From: a virus
Taxonomy: Duplodnaviria; Heunggongvirae; Uroviricota; Caudoviricetes
IMG/VR virus record: IMGVR_UViG_2778261593_000009
Coordinates: 1-29,312 of that record
DNA length: 29,312 nucleotides
Direction: 5' to 3' (one strand)
Below are positions 193 to 11,384 of the stretch, piece after piece. Position 1 is the stretch's first letter; each line of letters opens with the position of its first letter. Made by a program: the position numbers and the translations under genes. The notes under the pieces are model-generated. The model did not search any database, was not told where the DNA came from, and was given only the letters and a program-made list of their open reading frames with translations.

Positions 193-642
193 TCAGCCAA
201 CAAATTTTGCAATGAAATACGTAGCCGCCGCTGTAAAAAGCGAAGTAAAGACGGCTATACACACGGGTATAATGATGCCACTCAACCGCCACTTCGTATT
301 ATCATCAACTTTGTCAAACCGCCGATTCATCTCATCCATAATCTTGTCAAAGCGTTTATCCATCGCTTCGGTAATCTCACCCTTCAGGCTGTTAATGTCT
401 GATTTGATCTGATCTTTCAGGTGAGCTGTATCAGATTTAAGCTCCCCTTTCAGATTCGCAATATCGCATTTAAGATCACCTTTCAGATGTGCTGTGTCTG
501 CTTTGAGCTCACCTTTCACCTCACCAACATCGGCTTTGGTTGAAAGGTTTGTAGTGCGTTCAGCAAGCGTCGCAAGGTCGTTTCTTGTTAGCGATAAATC
601 ACCTTCGAGTCGCTCAATTCGTCTTTCAAGTTTATCTGACAT
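193..642 (-). CDS. Coiled-coil protein with about six 11-residue tandem repeats (LKGELKxDxxx) and a C-terminal hydrophobic membrane anchor; function unknown
   Basis: Track ORF 193-753; start placed at internal ATG (MSDKLERRIE...) because it is immediately preceded by GGAGGTGG. Hendecad periodicity and hydrophobic C-terminus (IIIPVCIAVFTSLFTAAATYFIA) read from the translation. Confidence 0.65.
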   Translation of the reverse strand: MSDKLERRIERLEGDLSLTRNDLATLAERTTNLSTKADVGEVKGELKADTAHLKGDLKCDIANLKGELKSDTAHLKDQIKSDINSLKGEITEAMDKRFDKIMDEMNRRFDKVDDNTKWRLSGIIIPVCIAVFTSLFTAAATYFIAKFVG

Positions 643-753
643 TCCACCTCCACTATTACCGCCTCCTCCACTGAAAGATGGGCCATCATCAAAAGAGTTG
701 CTAATGCCATCACGAATGGGGGTTACGCCATGCCCGCTTTTAGCACACGCCAC

Positions 754-1143
754 TCAGATTCCCTCCCAATCTATATATCCTTTATCTCTTGCCCAACGAA
801 CAACTGTGTGAGCTGTATATGTGGATGTGAAGCCGCAATAAGAACATGACACTTCATACCGGAAATTGTAGATGCTAATGGGGCCGTTCTCCTTACGTAT
901 GGGAGTGACATATTCCCAATCATTTGAATCATCAAGTTCAGGATCAGTGCCGTGAACAACCGTATGTGGAACAAATAGATCTGGGCGTCCACACGAGAGA
1001 CAAGAGGTTTTAGCACCTCTATCTGTGAGAAATTGAATAAATAATTTGGGCGTAATTTTCTGCAAGACCTGCACATGCTCACGTTCCTTATCATTAAGAG
1101 GCCTGCCAAGATATAGAAAATCATCAAATTTAAGAGGCTTCAT
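754..1143 (-). CDS. Hypothetical protein with two CxxC motifs (putative zinc ribbon); function unknown
   Basis: Track ORF 754-1158; start placed at MKPLKFDD, preceded by GGAGAAG; CLSCG and CSYCG motifs; start overlaps the 3' end of int by about 14 nt, suggesting translational coupling. Confidence 0.55.
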   Translation of the reverse strand: MKPLKFDDFLYLGRPLNDKEREHVQVLQKITPKLFIQFLTDRGAKTSCLSCGRPDLFVPHTVVHGTDPELDDSNDWEYVTPIRKENGPISIYNFRYEVSCSYCGFTSTYTAHTVVRWARDKGYIDWEGI

Positions 1144-2122
1144 ATACGGCTTCTCCAAGAGGATTAAATTTCACCGCATCCTGCAAGTAATCCGGCGCAA
1201 GATGGGCATAAATCATCGTTGTCTGAATCTTTGCGTGCCCCAGAATTTTCTGGAGCGTCAGAATATTGCCGCCGTTCATCATGAAATGACTGGCGAAGGT
1301 GTGGCGCAGCGCATGAACAGCCTGGCCATCAGGGACATCAGGTGCGACCGTTTTGATGACATCGCGAACCAATGGATAATCCAGCGTCGGAAACACCAGT
1401 TTCCCGCCCCGTTTTTTGATCTTTTCAAACAGGCTTTCAGAAATAGGAACGGTACGGTTTTTGTTGTTCTTCGTTTTTGAAAAAGTGATTCGACAATGAA
1501 GAACACGGCGCTGCTCCAGTGCCGCTACCTCGCCCCATCGCGCCCCGGTCGACAGAAGGATTTCGACAGCCAGCCGTTCATCGGGATTTTCAGCCAGTGC
1601 ATCCAGCAACTGAACACATTCAGACTTACTCAGATATCCCATTTCGCGCTCGTTAACCTTCATTCCTTTAAGGCCTTGAACGGGGTTATCGTTAAGAAAA
1701 TGGCCGGATGAGATGAGTGCGGTAAACATCGCGCTTAACGCCCCAATCTCTCGATTTATGGTGCTGGGCTGTATCCCCTGCTCTATCCTGGACACACGTA
1801 GCTCGGTGAGCATCGTTGTATTAAGTTTATGCACGCACGGGTCATCCATTGCCTCACTCAAGCGCAGCAATTTAAGGCGCGTGTTATGCCCTGACTTCAT
1901 TAGCTGGCCGTGGTATTTCCACCACAAGTCAATAAGCACTGACAGAGGACGGCGATCAATAGAGTTTCCTTTCCACTCATTGTTATGCTGTTGCGCCAGC
2001 ACCCACCGCTCATATAAAACTGCATCCGATTTCGTTTTAAATTTTTTACGAATGCGTTTGCCTTTTCGCCCCTCCGGGCGCATGTCAAGAAGATACCCTC
2101 CCGGAATTGATTTTATGCTCAT
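1130..2122 (-). CDS. int: Phage integrase, tyrosine recombinase (P2 Int-like)
   Basis: C-terminal catalytic region ALRHTFASHF...LGHAKIQTTMIYAHL (R-H-R-Y family signature); N-terminus MSIKSIPGGYLLDMRPEGRKGKRIRKKF resembles my recollection of P2 Int, so start set at that Met rather than the upstream track start. Confidence 0.9.
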   Translation of the reverse strand: MSIKSIPGGYLLDMRPEGRKGKRIRKKFKTKSDAVLYERWVLAQQHNNEWKGNSIDRRPLSVLIDLWWKYHGQLMKSGHNTRLKLLRLSEAMDDPCVHKLNTTMLTELRVSRIEQGIQPSTINREIGALSAMFTALISSGHFLNDNPVQGLKGMKVNEREMGYLSKSECVQLLDALAENPDERLAVEILLSTGARWGEVAALEQRRVLHCRITFSKTKNNKNRTVPISESLFEKIKKRGGKLVFPTLDYPLVRDVIKTVAPDVPDGQAVHALRHTFASHFMMNGGNILTLQKILGHAKIQTTMIYAHLAPDYLQDAVKFNPLGEAVYEAS

Positions 2123-2171: not shown

Positions 2172-2480
2172 TTAGCCGGGCTGTGTGCCAGTCTTGCGGG
2201 GTTTTTGAGAAGGCGATGTGCTTTTTGGCCCATCAGGGGAGAGAGACGGACTGATCTGCCCAGCAGCCTCATTTGTTTTTCCCGTCATAAGCCAATTCAT
2301 GTACTTAAAAAAGCGAGGGTGATTAACAATCTTGATAAGCACTTCGCCCCCTATGTTTTCAATCCGCCCCGTTTCATAACGACGCAAAGTGCCGATAGGC
2401 ACATCAATCAGGCCGCAAAATTCTTCGCGCGTTAAATCCTCTGATTCACGAATCACTCTAATTTTTTCACCGATAAGCAT
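2172..2480 (-). CDS. C: Immunity repressor, P2 C-like
   Basis: Position immediately upstream of int on the same strand; HTH region and C-terminal FFKYMNWLMTGKTNEAAGQISPSL resembling recalled P2 C; start taken at MLIGEKIRVI (track ORF begins at an upstream alternative start). Confidence 0.7.
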   Translation of the reverse strand: MLIGEKIRVIRESEDLTREEFCGLIDVPIGTLRRYETGRIENIGGEVLIKIVNHPRFFKYMNWLMTGKTNEAAGQISPSLSPDGPKSTSPSQKPRKTGTQPG

Positions 2481-2576
2481 TGACAGTGTTCCTATAAGTA
2501 CACTAAGCTTGCGCACAAGGTGTACTTATAAGTACACCAAGTCACAAACAACCACAGATAGCACAGGTTATCACAC
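2481..2576. promoter_or_regulatory. Divergent promoter/operator switch region between repressor and early operon
   Basis: 18-bp perfect palindrome GTGTACTTATAAGTACAC (about 2521-2538) plus a second copy of the half-site TATAAGTACAC (about 2494-2504) between two divergently transcribed genes. Confidence 0.6.
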
Positions 2577-2855
2577 ATGGCAAAAGTCCTGAACACACAC
2601 GAACAGGCAGACTTTGAGCGTTTAGCAGCGTTCTATCCCTACCGCGATGAGCATGGGTTATCAGTACTTGAAGAAAGCCTGAAAGATTACGCAAAGCGTA
2701 CCAACCAAGCTGTTAACACAGTGAAAAGACAGGCTGACAGAGGTTCAATTCCCATCAACCAGGATGAAAAGAACTCAAGACGCACAGTAAATCTCTTCGC
2801 TCTTTTCCTGAAAACAATCAGGAGCGCAGAAAAATACGTGCAGATGACAAAATAA
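2577..2855 (+). CDS. First early-operon gene; possible Cox/Apl-like small regulator (positional inference only)
   Basis: 92-aa ORF at the position occupied by cox/apl in P2/186; no sequence similarity to P2 Cox that I can recognise. Confidence 0.5.
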   Translation: MAKVLNTHEQADFERLAAFYPYRDEHGLSVLEESLKDYAKRTNQAVNTVKRQADRGSIPINQDEKNSRRTVNLFALFLKTIRSAEKYVQMTK

Positions 2856-5788: not shown

Positions 5789-6154
5789 ATGATTCTCGCC
5801 AACGACTTTCTTGAATACCTGCTCAACACAGAGCGTGATCTTGCCGTTCGCGTGCGTGAACGTTATGACATGTACCTGAAATCCCTGCCTGTACCGCAGC
5901 TCGCTGACGGAAAGATTATTATTGATGGTCGTTACATGATTGACAGCCACGAGGGAAATTACAGGCTTTACCGTATTGAAGGTGGCACCCCGTCCGTTAT
6001 TGGCATTTACCAGCGCCCATCCTCTGCGATCGTTGATGTGATTGCCGACAGCATCCGCATCACACATCACTATGCCGACACAGAAGACACCGTGCTGGAA
6101 ATTCAGCGGCTGGCTACCGTCTGCCGCGACACCCTGAATGGCATGACGAAGTAA
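5789..6154 (+). CDS. Hypothetical protein immediately upstream of the replication gene
   Basis: 121-aa ORF; ATG preceded by AGAGGA. Confidence 0.55.
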   Translation: MILANDFLEYLLNTERDLAVRVRERYDMYLKSLPVPQLADGKIIIDGRYMIDSHEGNYRLYRIEGGTPSVIGIYQRPSSAIVDVIADSIRITHHYADTEDTVLEIQRLATVCRDTLNGMTK

Positions 6155-6160
6155 ATCACT

Positions 6161-8983
6161 ATGACGGCAGAGCACATCAGGGACTGGCAACAACCGCGCC
6201 ACGCAGTGGGGCGTGAAGGAACGGGGATCCCCGCTCCTGAATCCGCGCTTTCCTCCTGGCTGGATGCCTACCGGGCAGAGAACGAGCGCCGCAAGGAAAT
6301 GGCTGATGCGGCGTTCTCCGCCACGCCGCTGGGCAACCTGATTAATAAAAGCCTGGACGCACAGGAAAAACAGGACAAAACCATCACACTGGCAGGAGAC
6401 GCCAGAAAACAGGCACGCGGCGCAGTGGATGAAGCCATGGCCTCGCTGCGCCTGCTGCCGTCCTATCTGCGCGATCCGCTTATTCGCCACCTCTCCTTCC
6501 TGCGCAAAAAACAGGAAGCCGATCGCCGGAAAGGCAAAAAGAGCTGGCAGGCGGAACGCTATGCACGCGGAACCCTGCGCAAAATATTCGAACGTCTGGA
6601 CCGCACCGATCACCGCTGGCTGACACCGGGTTATCGCTCCCTTGCCGGACGCGAACGCCTGGACGATTTGCTTTACCTGCCGCAGCTCAACAAACACCAG
6701 ATACAGACGCTGGCCACCATGACGGCGGCGATGTTCAGCAGCACCTTCGAAAAACTCTGCGATGGCTTTGGCGCGACCGATGGCGAGCTGACCATGGATG
6801 TAACGCTGAAGGCGTATCAGATGCTGGCCCGCATGGCGTTACACCTGCACGCCATGCCTCCACATTATGACGCACTGACAACAGACAAAGACCGGAGGAA
6901 CGAACCAGACACGGAGCTGCTGCCGGGCGCAATCCTTCGCCTGACCTGTGCGGAATGGTGGAAACGCAAACTGTGGCTGTTACGTTGCGAGTGGCGGGAA
7001 GAACAACTCCGCGCCGCCTGTCTGGTTTCCAGAAAAACATCACCCTATCTGAGCCAGGACGCGTTAAGCGAGTTTCGCGCACAGCGCGAGAAAACACGCG
7101 ATTTCCTGAAAAGTTTCATGCTGGAAAATGAAGACGGGTTCACGATTGATCTCGAGACGGTGTATTACGCGGGAGTAAGTAACCCGGTTCACCGTAAGGC
7201 AGAAATGATGGCCACCATGAAGGGACTGGAACTTCTGGCCGAAGCCCGTGGCGACAGAGCGGTGTTTCTGACTGTCACCTGCCCGTCAAAATACCACGCA
7301 ACAACGGAGAACGGTCATCCGAACCCCAAATGGAACGGGGCCACCATGCGCGACTCCAGCGATTACCTGGTTAACACATTTTTTGCGGCGGTCCGCAAAA
7401 AACTGAACCGCGACGGTCTGCGCTGGTATGGCATCCGCACGGTGGAGCCTCACCATGACGGCACTGTGCACTGGCATATGATGGTCTTTGCACATCCGGA
7501 CGAGATTGAAACCATCGTGTCCCACGTCTGCGATATTGCCATTCAGGAAGACCGCCACGAGCTGGGCGATGACATAACTCCGCGTTTTAAGGCGGAGTAC
7601 GTAGACGGCTCAAAAGGCACACCAACCAGCTACATCGCCACCTACATCGGAAAGAACCTGGACAGCCGCGCCGTGGATGGCATCGACCCGAAAACGGGCA
7701 AGCCACGCGTTGACCACGAAACCGGAAAATCAATGGCCGAGAGCGTGGAACGCGCCATCGGCTGGGCGCGCCTTCACCGGGTCCGCCAGTTCCAGTTCTT
7801 TGGCATTCCCTCCCGTCAGGTGTGGCGTGAACTCCGCCGCCTTGCCAGCCAGATGGCACGCAACCCGGAAGGCCCGCAACGGCTGAAGGATGACGCAATG
7901 GATGCGGTTCTTGCTGCCGCTGATGCCGGGTGTTTTGCCACCTACATTGAAAAACAGGGTGGCGTACTTGTTCCGCGCAAGGACTACCTGATTCGCACAG
8001 CCTACGACCTCGCAGATGAGCTGAACGATTACGGCGAACAGAGTGTACAGATTTACGGGATCTGGTCGCCACTCATCGGGGAATCCTCCCGTGTGTGCAC
8101 GCACCCGGATAACTGGAAGCTGGTAAGACGTAAACCGGAAGCGGAAGACAGCACCCACGAAAATGGTTTTGACCTTCAGGGCGGCCCTGCCGCCCCTTGG
8201 ACTCGTGGCAATAACTGTCCCCGTGTACAGGAAACAGGCAACAGCGGGACAGAACTGTCGGAAGAGCAACCAACACCGTGGCCGCAGATCCCTGACAGCG
8301 TTGATGTGGATGAATGGATGCGCTCACTGAAACGGCACGAACGCCGGGCGCTGATGCGTTCGCTGCGTGACAAACAGGCAAAAAACAGCAGTGATGAAAT
8401 GCAGAGCTGGACACAGAGCCGCAAACAGCCGCGACCTTTGCCTGATAACCACGAGTTACTCGCTAAAGAATGGCGGGAGTCTGCTGAATCTCTCGGCCTG
8501 CATATTGGTGAACAGCAGATGCAGCACCTGTTACGGGGCGGCAGTCTGTACGTTGACGGCAGCATCATTGCACCGCAGGGATTTGAAATTGTACGCAAAC
8601 CGGATACCCGCCCGGACAGCCGAATCACGCAGCTCTGGCAGCGCCTGAGCCGTAATCACGGCGTAAGCAGCACGGAGATCCGCCATAACCCGGTCGCCAG
8701 TTATCTGGAACAGCTAGGGGCATCAGACCCCGAAGCCGCCGCACGCCTGGCATCCACACTTCAGCAAGACCAGAACACCATGAAAACACCCGTTACCGTG
8801 CTTTCTGACATGCTGCGCGCCATCCGTGACGCAGAGCACGCACAGAGAATCAGTGAAACCACTGAACGCGCCCGCCGCAAAGCAAACCTGCTGCGGGGTG
8901 GCCTGACCAGTGGAAACAAAAAACAGACAGAAACGGGATTCACAAATCCCGTAAATGAGCAAAAAACGCGCCGCGATATATGA
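6161..8983 (+). CDS. A: Rolling-circle replication initiation endonuclease, P2 gpA-like
   Basis: HUH-type motif VEPHHDGTVHWHMMVF and paired tyrosines YIATYIGKNLD, matching the conserved motifs of P2 A protein; 940 aa. Confidence 0.85.
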   Translation: MTAEHIRDWQQPRHAVGREGTGIPAPESALSSWLDAYRAENERRKEMADAAFSATPLGNLINKSLDAQEKQDKTITLAGDARKQARGAVDEAMASLRLLPSYLRDPLIRHLSFLRKKQEADRRKGKKSWQAERYARGTLRKIFERLDRTDHRWLTPGYRSLAGRERLDDLLYLPQLNKHQIQTLATMTAAMFSSTFEKLCDGFGATDGELTMDVTLKAYQMLARMALHLHAMPPHYDALTTDKDRRNEPDTELLPGAILRLTCAEWWKRKLWLLRCEWREEQLRAACLVSRKTSPYLSQDALSEFRAQREKTRDFLKSFMLENEDGFTIDLETVYYAGVSNPVHRKAEMMATMKGLELLAEARGDRAVFLTVTCPSKYHATTENGHPNPKWNGATMRDSSDYLVNTFFAAVRKKLNRDGLRWYGIRTVEPHHDGTVHWHMMVFAHPDEIETIVSHVCDIAIQEDRHELGDDITPRFKAEYVDGSKGTPTSYIATYIGKNLDSRAVDGIDPKTGKPRVDHETGKSMAESVERAIGWARLHRVRQFQFFGIPSRQVWRELRRLASQMARNPEGPQRLKDDAMDAVLAAADAGCFATYIEKQGGVLVPRKDYLIRTAYDLADELNDYGEQSVQIYGIWSPLIGESSRVCTHPDNWKLVRRKPEAEDSTHENGFDLQGGPAAPWTRGNNCPRVQETGNSGTELSEEQPTPWPQIPDSVDVDEWMRSLKRHERRALMRSLRDKQAKNSSDEMQSWTQSRKQPRPLPDNHELLAKEWRESAESLGLHIGEQQMQHLLRGGSLYVDGSIIAPQGFEIVRKPDTRPDSRITQLWQRLSRNHGVSSTEIRHNPVASYLEQLGASDPEAAARLASTLQQDQNTMKTPVTVLSDMLRAIRDAEHAQRISETTERARRKANLLRGGLTSGNKKQTETGFTNPVNEQKTRRDI

Positions 8984-9023
8984 AGCGCGCACAAAACAGG
9001 CGAAAGCGGGAGTTCAGAATCCC
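8935..9023. promoter_or_regulatory. Two copies of an imperfect palindrome flanking the parM promoter region; candidate ParR-binding centromere/operator (parC-like)
   Basis: GGGATTcacaAATCCC (about 8935-8950) and GGGAGTTCAGAATCCC (about 9008-9023), both followed by GTAA. Confidence 0.35.
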
Positions 9024-9058
9024 GTAACCGATTAATTAATCAACATAAGGAAATCGAC

Positions 9059-10018
9059 ATGAAAATTTGTATCGACGACGGCTCCACCAACATCAAGCTG
9101 GCATGGACTGAGAACGGCGAACGCCGCAACGCCATCAGCCCGAACAGCTTCAAGTCGGAATGGTCAGCGCCGTTCGGTGGCACGCAGCCCGCGAACTACA
9201 TGCTTGATGGCGTGCGCTATGGTTTTGATCCGGTCAGCGATCGCTTTGTCCAGACGACCGACACGCAATACCAGTACAGCGATGTGAATGTTATTGCCAT
9301 TCATCATGCGCTGGTCAAATCAGGCATCACACCACAGGAGGTGGATGTGGTTGTCACCCTGCCACTGAGCGAGTATTTCGATACAAACGCACAGCCGGAC
9401 ATGGCCAACATCAGCCGCAAAAAAGCGAACGTTATGCGCCCGGTGGAGTACCAGAACGGCGAAGCATTCACTATCCGTAACGTGCGGGTTATGCCTGAAT
9501 CCATTCCGGCAGGCTTTAAAGCACTGGCTGACATGAGTCCGTTTGAATCCCTGCTGATTGTGGATTTGGGCGGAACCACGCTGGATGTGGCAAAGGTTCA
9601 GGGGCAACTGGCAGGTATCAGCCAGGTGTTTTGCGATCCACACGTAGGCGTTTCTCTGATGGCCGATGCCGTGCTGTCGGTGATGGCCACCAACGGTATG
9701 CGTACCAGTCACCACATCGCTAATACCATTATCGAACATCGCCACGATGAAGCCTGGCTGCGCCAGCACATCCACAATGACGCGCATTACGCCAGCCTGA
9801 TGGCAGTTATTCGTGAAAAGGAGGAAACACTGAAACAACGCGTGATCCGCGCGCTGGCGGGTTTTTCGGGTTACGGGCGGGTGATGGTTGTCGGTGGAGG
9901 GGCGGAGATTGTGGCACCCGCCATCCGCGAAGCCTGCGGAGTTAATGCGACTTTCATCGCGGACGGGGTGCCACAGTTTGCTCTGGTTAATGGGCTGTAC
10001 GCAATGGACAAGGAGTAA
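9059..10018 (+). CDS. parM: Actin-like segregation ATPase ParM (StbA)
   Basis: N-terminus MKICIDDGSTNIKLAW and motifs DVNVIAIHHAL, VMPESIPAG, LIVDLGGTTLD, FSGYGRVMVVGGGAE, LVNGLY closely parallel plasmid R1 ParM as I recall it. Confidence 0.85.
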   Translation: MKICIDDGSTNIKLAWTENGERRNAISPNSFKSEWSAPFGGTQPANYMLDGVRYGFDPVSDRFVQTTDTQYQYSDVNVIAIHHALVKSGITPQEVDVVVTLPLSEYFDTNAQPDMANISRKKANVMRPVEYQNGEAFTIRNVRVMPESIPAGFKALADMSPFESLLIVDLGGTTLDVAKVQGQLAGISQVFCDPHVGVSLMADAVLSVMATNGMRTSHHIANTIIEHRHDEAWLRQHIHNDAHYASLMAVIREKEETLKQRVIRALAGFSGYGRVMVVGGGAEIVAPAIREACGVNATFIADGVPQFALVNGLYAMDKE

Positions 10019-10022
10019 ACCA

Positions 10023-10334
10023 ATGACGACACCAACCAGACGGATAAGTTTCTATCTGAAGCCCGCCGCCGTCAAGAACGAAGGCGAAGCATGCGCCTGG
10101 CTGGACAGCCTTACACCAGAAGCCCGCAAAAGCGGCCAACGCGTGGCTTTTCTGGCCGGGCTGGCACTTCTGAAAATGAATCCGGCAGAGGCTTACCGAC
10201 TGGCTGCATGGGCTGATGATGAAGCGTTATCAGTGACACAGACCAGGACAGAACGCCCCGCATCACAGCCAGTATCAACCGCACAGATAACCAGCCAGAT
10301 GGCCGGGAATATCCAGGCGTTATTTCCTGAATAA
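10023..10334 (+). CDS. parR: ParR-like centromere-binding adaptor
   Basis: Small gene immediately downstream of parM with AGGAG SD; ISFYLKP...AFLAGLALL resembles the R1 ParR N-terminal pattern. Confidence 0.6.
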   Translation: MTTPTRRISFYLKPAAVKNEGEACAWLDSLTPEARKSGQRVAFLAGLALLKMNPAEAYRLAAWADDEALSVTQTRTERPASQPVSTAQITSQMAGNIQALFPE

Positions 10335-10460
10335 CACAACATCAGGGCATATTTGCCCTGATATCCCCTCTCAAACAAGGCAGCAACAAACTGCCCGTTG
10401 AATAACACAAATTACATGTTATGATTAACTCATAAGTAACCCCCGTTTGTGTCTTACGTT

Positions 10461-10835
10461 ATGAATGATCAAGATTATGGGCTTGATACCCTATTGGATA
10501 TGCACGGCTACCAGCACCACATGGATAATGGCTACTGGTGGAAGATTGAAGCCTACCGGGTCAGCCCAAGCCCATTCAGACCCCACGGGATACGTTACAA
10601 TCTGACATTACATGACCAGTACAATTCCCGCATATTTGGGATGGATAATGCTCATGGAATAAAACCACCGAAGAAGGGCCGTTTCACAGGGAAATTAACT
10701 GTTTACGACCATGTGCACCGCACAACATTTGACAAAGGCTATCCCTATGAATTCATTTCTGCGGAACAGCTTTTATCTGACTTCTTCGATAACGTAGATC
10801 GCATCATTGACGAAATCACAAGGGGGAATCAATGA
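10461..10835 (+). CDS. Hypothetical protein, first gene of a coupled two-gene module
   Basis: Track ORF starts at GTG 10449; first ATG at 10461 (MNDQDYGLD...); His/Tyr/Trp-rich; I recognise no family. Confidence 0.55.
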   Translation: MNDQDYGLDTLLDMHGYQHHMDNGYWWKIEAYRVSPSPFRPHGIRYNLTLHDQYNSRIFGMDNAHGIKPPKKGRFTGKLTVYDHVHRTTFDKGYPYEFISAEQLLSDFFDNVDRIIDEITRGNQ

Positions 10836-11209
10836 AAGCCCGTATCGGGATTATCCCTGAAAATATCCTCCGCCAGCGGCTACTGGATGTCGCCAGAGGA
10901 AAACGTAAACCACTGCCAGATGAACCAAAAGTATGGTTTTCTTCACTGCACGCTGTAGGGCAAGCTCTGAGTAACGAAAACATTGCTCTGTTACGTCTGA
11001 TGGATGAAGAAAAACCTCAAACAATGACAGAGTTGGCAGAAATGTCAGGCAGGAAACTGAGCAATCTTTCAGTAACCTTAAAAATGCTGAGCGGCTACGG
11101 TTTTGTCAGCCTGGAAAAGAAAGGCAATACCATTCTCCCGAAAGCATTATTCACCGATTTTGAAATCATCATTGATCCATCTGTCGGAACCACTCATCGG
11201 GCCGCCTGA
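10832..11209 (+). CDS. Putative winged-helix DNA-binding protein, second gene of the module
   Basis: ATGA overlap with the upstream gene; HTH-like segment MTELAEMSGRKLSNLSVTLKMLSGYGFVSLEK. Confidence 0.55.
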   Translation: MKARIGIIPENILRQRLLDVARGKRKPLPDEPKVWFSSLHAVGQALSNENIALLRLMDEEKPQTMTELAEMSGRKLSNLSVTLKMLSGYGFVSLEKKGNTILPKALFTDFEIIIDPSVGTTHRAA

Positions 11210-11384
11210 TCCCCACCAAACCAGGGCGATAATCACGCATCGCCCTGCTGCACAATAGTGCACAAAAAACGCGCTTTTTCTGCGCGCAGGTGACGGGGGA
11301 ACAGTCCGCGCTTCAGGGGTAAATGGCACCTCCTGAAAGATGCCACAGCATCATAATAGAATGAGCGCGTTGTTCACGACACAC

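What the first reader, a model, noticed from the sequence alone, without database searches (positions are those of the whole stretch)
2481..2576. Immunity switch with an 18-bp perfect palindrome and a repeated half-site
GTGTACTTATAAGTACAC is a perfect palindrome and its half-site TATAAGTACAC recurs about 34 bp away, between the divergent repressor and early-operon starts. P2 C is known to bind direct repeats and 186 CI inverted repeats; this operator has features of both, so the repressor-operator geometry may be hybrid.
Basis: partly seen in the sequence, partly recalled or inferred. Interest (0 to 1): 0.4.

Follow-up and report, generated by a model that had tools for sequence, protein, structure and literature searches.

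The report
P2-type prophage switch, palindromic operators
This is the lysis/lysogeny switch of a P2-family prophage, in which the repressor's two binding sites, 34 bp apart around the early promoter, are each an 18-20 bp palindrome; the layout is ordinary, but it suggests that a repressor family described as binding direct repeats mostly uses conventional palindromic sites.

Summary
Window 2519-2538 is a perfect 20-bp palindrome (GGTGTACTTATAAGTACACC). Its right half plus centre recurs 34 bp upstream at 2493-2503. The upstream copy (2486-2503) is itself 7/9 dyad-symmetric.

The region is the intergenic switch between a 102-aa P2 C-type repressor (2172-2480, minus) and a Cox-like gene (2577-2855, plus). 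The layout matches phage WΦ: a -35 TTGACA overlapping the repressor start codon, O1 filling the 18-nt promoter spacer, a -10 TAAGCT, and O2 at about +3 to +22.

In relatives keeping the recognition helix GT(L/M)RRYETG (60-100% identity; E. coli, Salmonella, Klebsiella, Yersinia, Edwardsiella, Providencia), both sites are conserved while the spacers diverge. Yersinia carries a mirror-symmetric double change that keeps the palindrome perfect. O1's two dyad mismatches fall within the repressor's Shine-Dalgarno sequence.

Ten of 16 operator classes in this family show a ≥7/9 dyad at the O2 position. P2 and WΦ, the two classes studied experimentally, do not.

Most likely one symmetric dimer binds each site, and the two dimers together occlude Pe. 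The "P2/186 hybrid" reading is not supported: the repressor is purely C-type. This is an uncharacterised immunity class and a mild variant of a known switch. Nothing here is experimentally tested.

The parts
2172..2480 (-). Immunity repressor gene, P2 C type (102 aa, MLIGEKIR...; recognition helix GTLRRYETG)
   Evidence: ORF. The ATG at 2480 matches the 102-aa homologues P0001-P0014. PDB P2 C E=2.5e-15; phrog_147 E=5.7e-30; AF2 model matches 2xcj_A at rmsd 1.3 A.
2480..2485 (+). Pe -35 hexamer TTGACA, overlapping the repressor start codon by one base (inferred)
   Evidence: Invariant CATTGAC in all 12 aligned relatives. Same position as the annotated Pe -35 of P2 and as TTGACA in WΦ.
2486..2503 (.). 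Operator O1, GTGTTCCTATAAGTACAC, 7/9 dyad-symmetric, filling the whole 18-nt spacer of Pe
   Evidence: 11 of 18 positions are invariant in relatives. Same place as WΦ O1.
2490..2493 (-). Shine-Dalgarno AGGA of the repressor gene (TCCT on the plus strand), inside the left arm of O1
   Evidence: Read from the sequence. CCT at 2491-2493 is invariant in relatives. The two dyad mismatches of O1 (2490, 2492) fall within this tetranucleotide.
2504..2509 (+). Pe -10 hexamer TAAGCT (inferred); transcription start expected near 2516
   Evidence: TA...T is invariant, consensus TAAnnT, in relatives. It lies 18 nt after the -35. The consensus scan did not call it.
2519..2538 (.). Operator O2, perfect 20-bp palindrome GGTGTACTTATAAGTACACC, about +3 to +22 of the Pe transcript
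   Evidence: 12 of 18 core positions are invariant in relatives, and Yersinia has a mirror-symmetric double change.
2565..2573 (-). Probable Pc extended -10, TGATAACCT on the minus strand (start near 2558); AGG at 2565-2567 on the plus strand doubles as the cox Shine-Dalgarno (inferred)
   Evidence: The motif TGnTA[ACT]CCT is conserved in nearly all classes. In WΦ the same motif (rc of L001 1178-1186) lies 7 nt upstream of a position that reproduces both published numbers: Pc start 60 nt from O2 and an 82-nt transcript overlap.
2577..2855 (+). Cox-like first gene of the early operon (92 aa)
   Evidence: phrog_575 'Cox-like excisionase and repressor' E=1.1e-7, and phrog_11533 over the full length. 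No Pfam hit.
1130..2122 (-). Tyrosine integrase downstream of the repressor (context)
   Evidence: Pfam Int_N 1.5e-28 and Phage_integrase 3.9e-20.

Best explanation
The interval is the Pe/Pc genetic switch of a P2-family (P88/Xuanwuvirus-like) prophage that belongs to an uncharacterised immunity class. The 102-aa C-type repressor most likely forms a symmetric dimer, as P2 C does. One dimer binds each of two 18-20-bp dyad-symmetric sites (arms GTGTAC/GTACAC, arm centres about 12 bp apart). O1 occupies the entire spacer between the -35 and -10 of the early promoter Pe. O2 lies 34 bp (about 3.2 helical turns) downstream, just after the start site. Occupation of both sites, probably cooperative and with DNA bending as measured for WΦ C, excludes RNA polymerase from Pe and silences cox and the early operon. 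The repressor's own convergent promoter Pc (near 2558-2573) stays active. O1 is a degraded palindrome because the same bases must also serve as promoter spacer and, on the other strand, as the repressor's ribosome-binding site. O2 is free of those constraints and stays perfect. Shown here: the sequence anatomy, homology of the proteins, conservation and co-variation. Inferred: the promoters, stoichiometry, cooperativity and repression.
For: The repeat and palindrome are real and non-random. The repressor is a P2 C homologue by sequence and by model, and the next gene is Cox-like. The architecture can be superimposed on WΦ, where half-site mutations abolish repression and the spacing is 34 bp. 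In 12 relatives at 60-100% repressor identity, O1, O2, the -35 and the TA..T of the -10 are conserved, whereas 0 of 9 bases between the -10 and O2 and 1 of 27 bases after O2 are invariant. Yersinia O2 is GTGTTCTTATAAGAACAC, changed on both arms at mirror positions, and the palindrome there extends to about 30 bp. Operator arms change together with the recognition helix across classes: RRYET with GTGTAC, KKYET with GGTTCA, KNYE with GGTCAC. Ten of 16 classes have a ≥7/9 dyad at the O2 offset; in 7 of them at most 0.25% of shuffles score as high. Mirror positions are complementary in 96 of 117 cells against 52.7±4.6 in column shuffles. P2 C is a symmetric dimer whose helices are 26 A apart, as in P22 c2, which binds palindromes; the model's next-best structural match is the P22 c2-operator complex. 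WΦ C can bind a single 'half-site', as expected if each site holds a dimer. The P2 C footprint suggests four monomers.
Against: There are no binding or expression data for this class. The three members studied experimentally (P2, P2 Hy dis, WΦ) are described as recognising non-palindromic direct repeats, and P2 and WΦ O2 score only 3/9 and 4/9 as dyads. Close relatives carry single asymmetric changes in O2 (L002 ..GTACAT, L003 GTGTGC.., L048 ..AAGCACAC), so perfect symmetry is not obligatory. O1 is only 7/9. The O2 18-mers were chosen as the best dyad within a 17-offset zone, and many loci are related, which inflates some counts. The consensus promoter scan found no sigma-70 site, so Pe and Pc rest on homology.
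Confidence: 0.75

Rival explanations
1. Pure direct-repeat recognition, as proposed for P2 C. Only the shared 11-nt unit TATAAGTACAC is read, by one helix of each dimer. The other helix makes non-specific contacts, and the palindromy of O2 is incidental.
For: This is the published model for the family. O1 and O2 share the right arm and centre exactly, while their left arms differ. WΦ and P2 O2 lack dyad symmetry.
Against: The O2 left arm is as conserved as the right arm across 60-100% relatives. The Yersinia change is mirrored on both arms. Ten of 16 classes have significant dyads at the same offset. In L059 O2 resembles the reverse complement of O1, so orientation is not kept. O1's deviations are explained by the overlapping Shine-Dalgarno sequence.
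Confidence: 0.12
2. The palindromes act mainly at the RNA level. One option is a 5' hairpin on the Pe transcript. Another is pairing of the O2 copy with the O1 copy in the Pc leader, which would bury the repressor's ribosome-binding site and control translation or stability.
For: The Pe leader folds into an 8-bp hairpin at O2 (-16.7 kcal/mol for 65 nt, z -4.0). The Pc leader pairs O2 with O1 over the AGGA (-27.7 kcal/mol, z -3.2).
Against: Any palindrome folds by construction. RNA structure does not explain why O1 and O2 carry the same sequence, why O1 sits exactly in the untranscribed Pe spacer, or why the arms co-vary with the recognition helix. At the homologous WΦ sites the function is repressor binding. 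This could be an additional layer rather than the main function.
Confidence: 0.05
3. The palindrome is a promoter or other-factor element. It could be bidirectional TATAAG -10 boxes for Pe and Pc, or the binding site of Cox or a host protein such as IHF, rather than the C operator.
For: The centre CTTATAAG reads TATAAG on both strands. Cox must act somewhere near Pc.
Against: The invariant TTGACA plus TAAnnT 18 nt later already gives Pe in every relative, and matches the annotated or mapped promoters of P2 and WΦ. In other classes the O2 centre is not -10-like, for example GGTCACGTGTAAGTGACC. Cox proteins vary independently, and the region after O2, where P2 and WΦ Cox boxes lie, is the variable one.
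Confidence: 0.04
4. This is a true hybrid of P2 C-type and 186 CI-type operator logic, for example with long-range looping or multi-dimer wheels.
For: Inverted and direct repeats coexist.
Against: The repressor has no CI-like oligomerisation domain: it is 102 aa and residues 84-96 are predicted to be disordered. No further sites with 2 or fewer mismatches exceed chance in 29 kb. No cII-like gene lies between the repressor and cox.
Confidence: 0.03

Closest known systems
Phage WΦ C repressor / O1-O2 operator (immunity class III of P2-like coliphages)
   Same: A ~100-aa C-type repressor sits between int and cox. The -35 TTGACA abuts or overlaps the C start codon, O1 lies in the Pe spacer, and O2 lies 34 bp downstream of O1. 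The Pc -10 motif TGnTAnCCT is conserved.
   Different: Protein identity is only 38%, and the operator sequence is unrelated (TATTGGTGAC). WΦ sites are described as 10-bp direct repeats; its O2 is 4/9 dyad-symmetric, although its O1 is 7/9. The intergenic region is 152 vs 96 bp, and the Pe/Pc overlap is 82 nt vs about 43 nt predicted here.
Phage P2 C repressor / O1-O2 (PDB 2XCJ)
   Same: Same protein family and fold. Same gene order, the same -35 overlapping the C start, and two sites flanking the Pe -10.
   Different: P2 sites are 8-bp non-palindromic repeats (GTTTAGAT) 22 bp apart. Here the sites are 18-20-bp palindromes 34 bp apart. Identity is 39-46%.
P22 c2, 434 and lambda CI N-terminal domains on adjacent operators
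   Same: Works alike: an HTH dimer sits on a 14-18-bp dyad-symmetric site, with two neighbouring sites overlapping a promoter. P22 c2-operator complexes are the next-best structural match, and helix spacing is 26 A as in P2 C.
   Different: Those repressors carry a C-terminal oligomerisation and RecA-cleavage domain, use three sites and control divergent promoters. This repressor has a single domain, and its promoters converge.
Restriction-modification controller proteins (C.Esp1396I, C.AhdI, C.BclI)
   Same: Small XRE-type dimers bind two tandem palindromic sites as a tetramer. The P2 C structure paper cites them as structural relatives, and they appear among the fold matches.
   Different: Centre-to-centre distance is about 15 bp rather than 34 bp, and the biological role differs. 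They are not homologous beyond the HTH fold.
Phage 186 CI
   Same: It is the immunity repressor of a P2-related phage with convergent promoters, and it binds inverted repeats.
   Different: It is a two-domain protein of about 190 aa that forms a wheel of dimers with distal FL/FR sites. None of these features is present here.

Membership tests
P2 C-type immunity repressor / C-Cox switch (Peduoviridae) | A repressor of about 100 aa that is homologous to P2 C and has an N-terminal HTH | tested here: met
   phmmer against the PDB finds P2 C (2L49/2XCJ) at E=2.5e-15 over residues 3-98. phrog_147 scores 5.7e-30. The AF2 model matches 2xcj_A at TM 0.85 and rmsd 1.3 A.
P2 C-type immunity repressor / C-Cox switch (Peduoviridae) | Gene order int - C, then cox transcribed the opposite way, with Cox-like as the first early gene | tested here: met
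   Integrase at 1130-2122(-), C at 2172-2480(-), Cox-like at 2577-2855(+).
P2 C-type immunity repressor / C-Cox switch (Peduoviridae) | Two repeated repressor sites at the early promoter Pe | tested here: met
   O1 at 2486-2503 lies between the -35 and -10. O2 at 2519-2538 follows the predicted start, 34 bp from O1. Both are conserved in relatives.
P2 C-type immunity repressor / C-Cox switch (Peduoviridae) | Convergent (face-to-face) promoters Pe and Pc with overlapping transcripts | tested here: inconclusive
   Pe (TTGACA-18-TAAGCT) and Pc (TGATAACCT on the minus strand) are inferred from conservation and from WΦ and P2 positions. The consensus scan found none. No start sites are mapped.
P2 C-type immunity repressor / C-Cox switch (Peduoviridae) | Operator half-sites are non-palindromic direct repeats. 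This is a property reported for the studied members, not a definition of the family. | tested here: not met
   O2 is a perfect 20-bp palindrome and O1 is 7/9 dyad-symmetric. The same holds for 10 of 16 classes.
P2 C-type immunity repressor / C-Cox switch (Peduoviridae) | The repressor binds the sites and represses Pe; the immunity specificity | not testable with these tools
   This needs EMSA or footprinting, reporter fusions and superinfection tests.
186 CI-type switch | A two-domain repressor of about 190 aa with a C-terminal oligomerisation domain | tested here: not met
   The protein has 102 aa and a single HTH domain plus a disordered tail.
186 CI-type switch | Distal flanking operators (FL/FR) and a cII-dependent establishment promoter | tested here: not met
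   No further GTGTAC-N6-GTACAC sites above chance in 29 kb: 6 matches with 3 or fewer mismatches against 6.7 expected, and the only ones with 1 or fewer are O1 and O2. No cII-like ORF follows cox; the next gene is DUF4761.

The most novel reading that the evidence does not exclude
P2 C-family repressors are, as a rule, ordinary palindrome binders: one symmetric dimer per 18-bp dyad site, with two sites 28-34 bp apart. Under this reading, the 'non-palindromic direct repeats' of P2 and WΦ are the better-kept arms of degenerate dyads. O1 is always degraded because it also encodes the promoter spacer and the repressor's ribosome-binding site. This window's class, with a perfect O2, would then be the natural substrate for resolving the direct-repeat paradox raised by the symmetric P2 C dimer structure. 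A more speculative addition is that pairing of the O2 and O1 copies in the Pc leader RNA masks the repressor's Shine-Dalgarno sequence and tunes C translation.
Probability: 0.5. Interest if true: 0.55.

Novelty: new variant of a known kind. Interest (0 to 1): 0.4.

Why it matters
The P2 C repressor is cited as a rare prokaryotic repressor that reads non-palindromic direct repeats with a symmetric dimer, and how it does so has been open since the 2010 crystal structure. This prophage class occurs in about 2% of complete E. coli genomes and also in Salmonella. Related operators occur in Klebsiella, Yersinia, Edwardsiella and Providencia. Here a C-type repressor faces two tandem palindromes at the positions of the WΦ half-sites. 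Most other immunity classes of the family show the same plan.

If confirmed, the paradox largely disappears, because P2 itself would be the atypical member. The palindromic O2 would be a good substrate for a repressor-DNA co-crystal. The helix-to-arm correspondences (RRYET with GTGTAC, KKYET with GGTTCA, KNYE with GGTCAC) would give a small recognition code for predicting prophage immunity groups from sequence. For genome annotation, this is simply the switch of a P2-like prophage.

Tried and rejected
- **DNA similarity in sequenced phages:** a megablast of the switch against 50,697 phage records found nothing. The closest isolated phages have repressors at 52% identity or less, so no characterised phage shares this immunity type.
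- **Papers that could not be read:** Karlsson 2006 (seven immunity classes) and Liu & Haggård-Ljungquist 1999 (WΦ switch) are not held. No supplement is held for Nilsson 2011. I therefore cannot exclude that dyad symmetry in some classes was noted there, or that this class equals tentative class VIII or X. ΦECO5 of UTI89 (class IX) was fetched and is a different class, though it also has a palindromic O2.
- **Literature search:** the operator sequence gave only irrelevant hits. Two keyword searches found no paper on palindromic C-family operators.
- **Promoters and terminators:** the consensus scan found none, so Pe and Pc rest on homology.
- **Distal operators:** none above chance.
- **Species-representative genomes:** this scan returned only two loci. 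The metagenome scan added no new operator variants in this class.
- **Alternative Pc -10:** TGCTATCTG (reverse complement of 2553-2561) was rejected because it is not conserved in L004 or other relatives.
- **RNA hairpin as the main function:** rejected (and the reasoning under rivals).

Full report
**1. The observation**

The plus strand at 2480-2541 reads TTGACA GTGTTCCTATAAGTACAC TAAGCT TGCGCACAAG GTGTACTTATAAGTACAC CAAG.
- The 11-mer TATAAGTACAC occurs at 2493-2503(+), 2527-2537(+) and 2520-2530(-). It occurs nowhere else in the 29.3-kb window, even with one mismatch allowed (expected 0.16; 0 of 100 shuffles reached three).
- The repeat finder extends the direct repeat to 22 nt (2486-2507 vs 2520-2541, 86% identical, spacing 34). 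It also reports a perfect inverted repeat with arms 2519-2528 and 2529-2538, which is a 20-bp palindrome.
- This is the only perfect palindrome with arms of 8 nt or more in the window. Markov simulations give 0.043 palindromes with 10-nt arms per window.
- The upstream copy is itself dyad-symmetric at 7 of 9 mirror pairs.

**2. Context**

- The interval 2481-2576 is exactly the gap between two divergent genes.
- On the minus strand, 2172-2480 encodes a 102-aa protein. It matches the solved P2 C immunity repressor (2L49/2XCJ, E=2.5e-15 over residues 3-98) and phrog_147.
- An AlphaFold model (pLDDT about 90 for residues 1-70, tail disordered) superimposes on 2xcj_A (rmsd 1.3 A, TM 0.85). The next-best match is the P22 c2 repressor-operator complex.
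- Downstream of the repressor lies a tyrosine integrase.
- On the plus strand, 2577-2855 encodes a 92-aa protein that hits 'Cox-like excisionase and repressor' (phrog_575, 1.1e-7). A DUF4761 gene follows.
- The replication region of the window (about 6000-11300) is 97% identical to phage P88 / Xuanwuvirus.

This is therefore the C/Cox switch of a P2-family prophage.
- The switch DNA has no megablast match among 50,697 phage records.
- The nearest repressors of isolated phages are 52% identical or less; P2 C is 39-46% identical and WΦ C 38%.
- The complete switch is present at 97-99.8% identity in 119 of 5,426 complete E. coli genomes, and also in a Salmonella genome.

**3. Anatomy compared with the studied switches**

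In WΦ the sequence reads CAT-TTGACA-gtaacc-TATTGGTGAC-t-TATATT, and a second TATTGGTGAC lies 34 bp downstream. The literature gives 10-bp half-sites 34 bp apart flanking the Pe -10. In P2 the annotated Pe -35 likewise overlaps the C start codon.

The window has the same plan:
- TTGACA at 2480-2485 overlaps the C start codon by one base.
- O1 fills the entire 18-nt spacer.
- TAAGCT at 2504-2509 is the likely -10.
- O2 begins about 3 nt after the expected start site near 2516.

For Pc, I noticed a minus-strand motif TGnTA[ACT]CCT conserved in almost every class.
- In WΦ (TGTTACCCT, the reverse complement of L001 1178-1186) it lies 7 nt upstream of position 1171.
- That position reproduces both published figures: the Pc start 60 nt from O2 and an 82-nt Pe/Pc overlap.
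- In the window the motif is TGATAACCT (reverse complement of 2565-2573). This predicts a Pc start near 2558 and an overlap of about 43 nt, close to P2's roughly 35 nt.

These promoter assignments are inferences. The consensus scan called no promoter.

**4. Comparative test within this repressor type**

I fetched the switch regions of homologues at 89, 83, 77, 74, 71, 68-69, 65 and 60% identity. They come from E. coli, Salmonella, Klebsiella, Yersinia, Edwardsiella and Providencia, together with 71 viral and 20 metagenomic loci. All members that keep the recognition helix GT(L/M)RRYETG keep both sites.

In the 12-sequence alignment, conservation tracks the proposed elements:

| Segment | Invariant positions |
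|---|---|
| O1 | 11 of 18 |
| O2 | 12 of 18 |
| CATTGAC (start codon plus -35) | all |
| TA...T of the -10 | all three |
| Between the -10 and O2 | 0 of 9 |
| The 27 bases after O2 | 1 |

- O1-O2 spacing is 33 or 34 bp.
- Klebsiella and Providencia have the identical perfect palindrome.
- Yersinia has GTGTTCTTATAAGAACAC: an A to T change on the left arm is mirrored by T to A on the right arm, inside a palindrome of about 30 bp. That is what selection on a dyad predicts.
- Symmetry is not absolute. Salmonella and Edwardsiella carry one or two central mismatches, and three close relatives carry single asymmetric transitions in O2 (L002, L003, L048).

**5. Why O1 is imperfect**

O1 differs from the ideal dyad at 2490 and 2492. 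These two bases lie within TCCT, whose complement AGGA is the Shine-Dalgarno sequence of the repressor gene, 9 nt upstream of its ATG. CCT at 2491-2493 is invariant in all relatives. O1 is therefore constrained three ways: as promoter spacer, as operator and as ribosome-binding site. O2 is not. The equivalent position in other classes also carries TCC or CCT.

**6. The same plan in other immunity classes**

I scored the best 18-bp dyad in the 110 nt after the -35 for 16 operator classes. Ten have a ≥7/9 dyad at offsets 35-41, the O2 position. For each of these ten, 5.6% or fewer of shuffles score as high; for seven of them the figure is 0.25% or less. Examples are:
- GGTTCATAATTATGAACC
- GGTCACGTGTAAGTGACC
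- AAGGTGCTTCATTAAGCACCTT
- AGTCACCATAAGGTGACT
- TGGAACCTATATAGGTTCCA, in the repressor class of the 'P2' record from strain T22; L-413C gave an identical repressor match but its switch was not inspected
- TTCTTCACCACATGGTGAAGAA, in ΦECO5 of UTI89

A weaker dyad sits right after the -35, at the O1 position. Mirror positions are complementary in 96 of 117 cells for 13 class representatives, against 52.7±4.6 after column shuffling.

The arms change together with the recognition helix. In one class (L059) O2 resembles the reverse complement of O1, so relative orientation is not preserved.

P2 and WΦ are two of the three members studied experimentally; the third, P2 Hy dis, was not examined here. 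Their O2 sites score 3/9 and 4/9. However, WΦ O1 is AGTAAC-N6-GTGACT (7/9). The WΦ 'half-site' ...GGTGAC(C) equals the right arm of the GGTCAC-N6-GTGACC sites used by classes that share its helix, GT[IV]KNYE.

Caveats: the 18-mers were picked as the best dyad within a zone, the classes are not fully independent, and the phiT5282H/SEN5 class shows only a partial dyad.

**7. Mechanism**

Published data frame the mechanism:
- P2 C is a symmetric dimer with recognition helices 26 A apart, similar to palindrome binders. The authors had to propose that one helix reads the repeat and the other binds non-specifically.
- WΦ C binds a single half-site in vitro, but both sites are needed for repression in vivo. 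It bends DNA and tolerates 24-28-bp spacing.
- The P2 C footprint suggests four monomers.

The most economical reading is that one dimer sits on each dyad site and that the two dimers together, probably cooperatively, block RNA polymerase at Pe. O2 would lie at about +21 to +40 of the predicted Pc transcript. That position could give negative autoregulation at high repressor levels, which is an inference only. Cox presumably acts in the variable stretch 2540-2575, near Pc.

**8. Rivals**

- **Pure direct-repeat reading:** disfavoured by left-arm conservation, by the mirrored change in Yersinia and by the cross-class dyads.
- **RNA-level role:** the palindromes do fold, and in the Pc leader O2 can pair with O1 over the Shine-Dalgarno sequence. 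But an RNA role cannot explain why O1 and O2 share a sequence, why O1 sits in the untranscribed spacer, or why arms co-vary with the helix. It remains possible as a secondary layer.
- **Promoter or Cox-site role for the palindrome:** this does not generalise to other classes.
- **Hybrid with 186 CI:** excluded by protein size and domain content, and by the absence of distal sites.

**9. Novelty and verdict**

This is a member of the P2 C/Cox switch family with WΦ-like geometry, from an immunity class that has no characterised representative. The new element is that its operators are tandem palindromes, and that this appears to be the majority condition in a family described as binding non-palindromic direct repeats. 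No paper in the held library says so. Two key older papers could not be read.

Interest is moderate. The switch itself is ordinary. The reinterpretation is testable and would matter to a small field. Everything beyond sequence anatomy, homology and conservation is inference.

Noticed in passing
window 2172-2306 (3' third of the repressor gene): 116 of 235 E. coli genomes that match share only this part, which encodes the conserved C-terminal tail ...TGKTNEAAGQISPSLSPDG..., at 84-100% identity. Their HTH part, operators and cox differ. This implies a recombination junction inside the C gene that delimits the exchangeable immunity module.
   Followed up: partly
window 2478-2558, minus strand (predicted Pc leader RNA): The O2 and O1 copies can pair with each other in the C mRNA leader (MFE -27.7 kcal/mol, z -3.2). 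This buries the repressor's Shine-Dalgarno AGGA. It may be a by-product of tandem palindromes or a translational control.
   Followed up: partly
window 2565-2573; L001 (WΦ) 1178-1186: The minus-strand motif TGnTA[ACT]CCT is conserved across nearly all C-family classes. In WΦ it fits the published Pc start. In the window it overlaps the cox Shine-Dalgarno (AGG 2565-2567), so one hexamer may serve as Pc -10 on one strand and as ribosome-binding site on the other.
   Followed up: partly
window 2560-2573 and 2650-2663: AGCACAGGTTATCA recurs as AGCATGGGTTATCA inside the cox-like ORF (12/14 identical, spacing 90). This may be chance, or a second copy of the Pc/SD-like motif.
   Followed up: no
window 2540-2576: CACAG/CACAC-type pentamers recur at intervals of about 9-10 bp (CCACAGATAGCACAGGTTATCACAC) in the variable stretch next to the predicted Pc. 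These are candidate Cox boxes, by analogy with the 20-bp-spaced repeats in WΦ (L001 1135-1169).
   Followed up: no
L003 (NZ_JBQPOM010000071.1, 'Vagococcus sp. WN89Y'): An assembly labelled as a Gram-positive Vagococcus carries this enterobacterial prophage switch, with a 98% identical repressor. Contamination or mislabelling is likely.
   Followed up: no
L048 (IMGVR_UViG_2751185973_000015): A close relative (repressor 96% identical) has T to C changes in both O1 (GTGTCCC) and O2 (AAGCACAC). It could be an operator-weakened or decaying prophage.
   Followed up: no
window 193-1158, minus strand: Two ORFs lie downstream of the integrase, at the prophage end. The 134-aa ORF has no Pfam hit. The 186-aa ORF is a Gly-rich, coiled-coil protein with a C-terminal hydrophobic stretch and only weak CCDC90-like similarity. 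Both are probably cargo genes.
   Followed up: no
window 6000-11300: This stretch is 97% identical to Escherichia phage P88 / Xuanwuvirus (replication endonuclease, ParM-like and partition-like genes), although the immunity region has no phage match. The prophage is mosaic.
   Followed up: partly
L091 (NC_041848.1, 'Escherichia phage P2' from strain T22): This record is named P2 but carries a different repressor and operator from canonical P2 (NC_001895): CCTATATAGG repeats 34 bp apart, with a perfect 20-bp palindromic O2. L-413C, R18C and P24B2 gave the same tblastn identity and E-value to the window repressor, so they may share this repressor class; their sequences were not compared directly.
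   Followed up: partly
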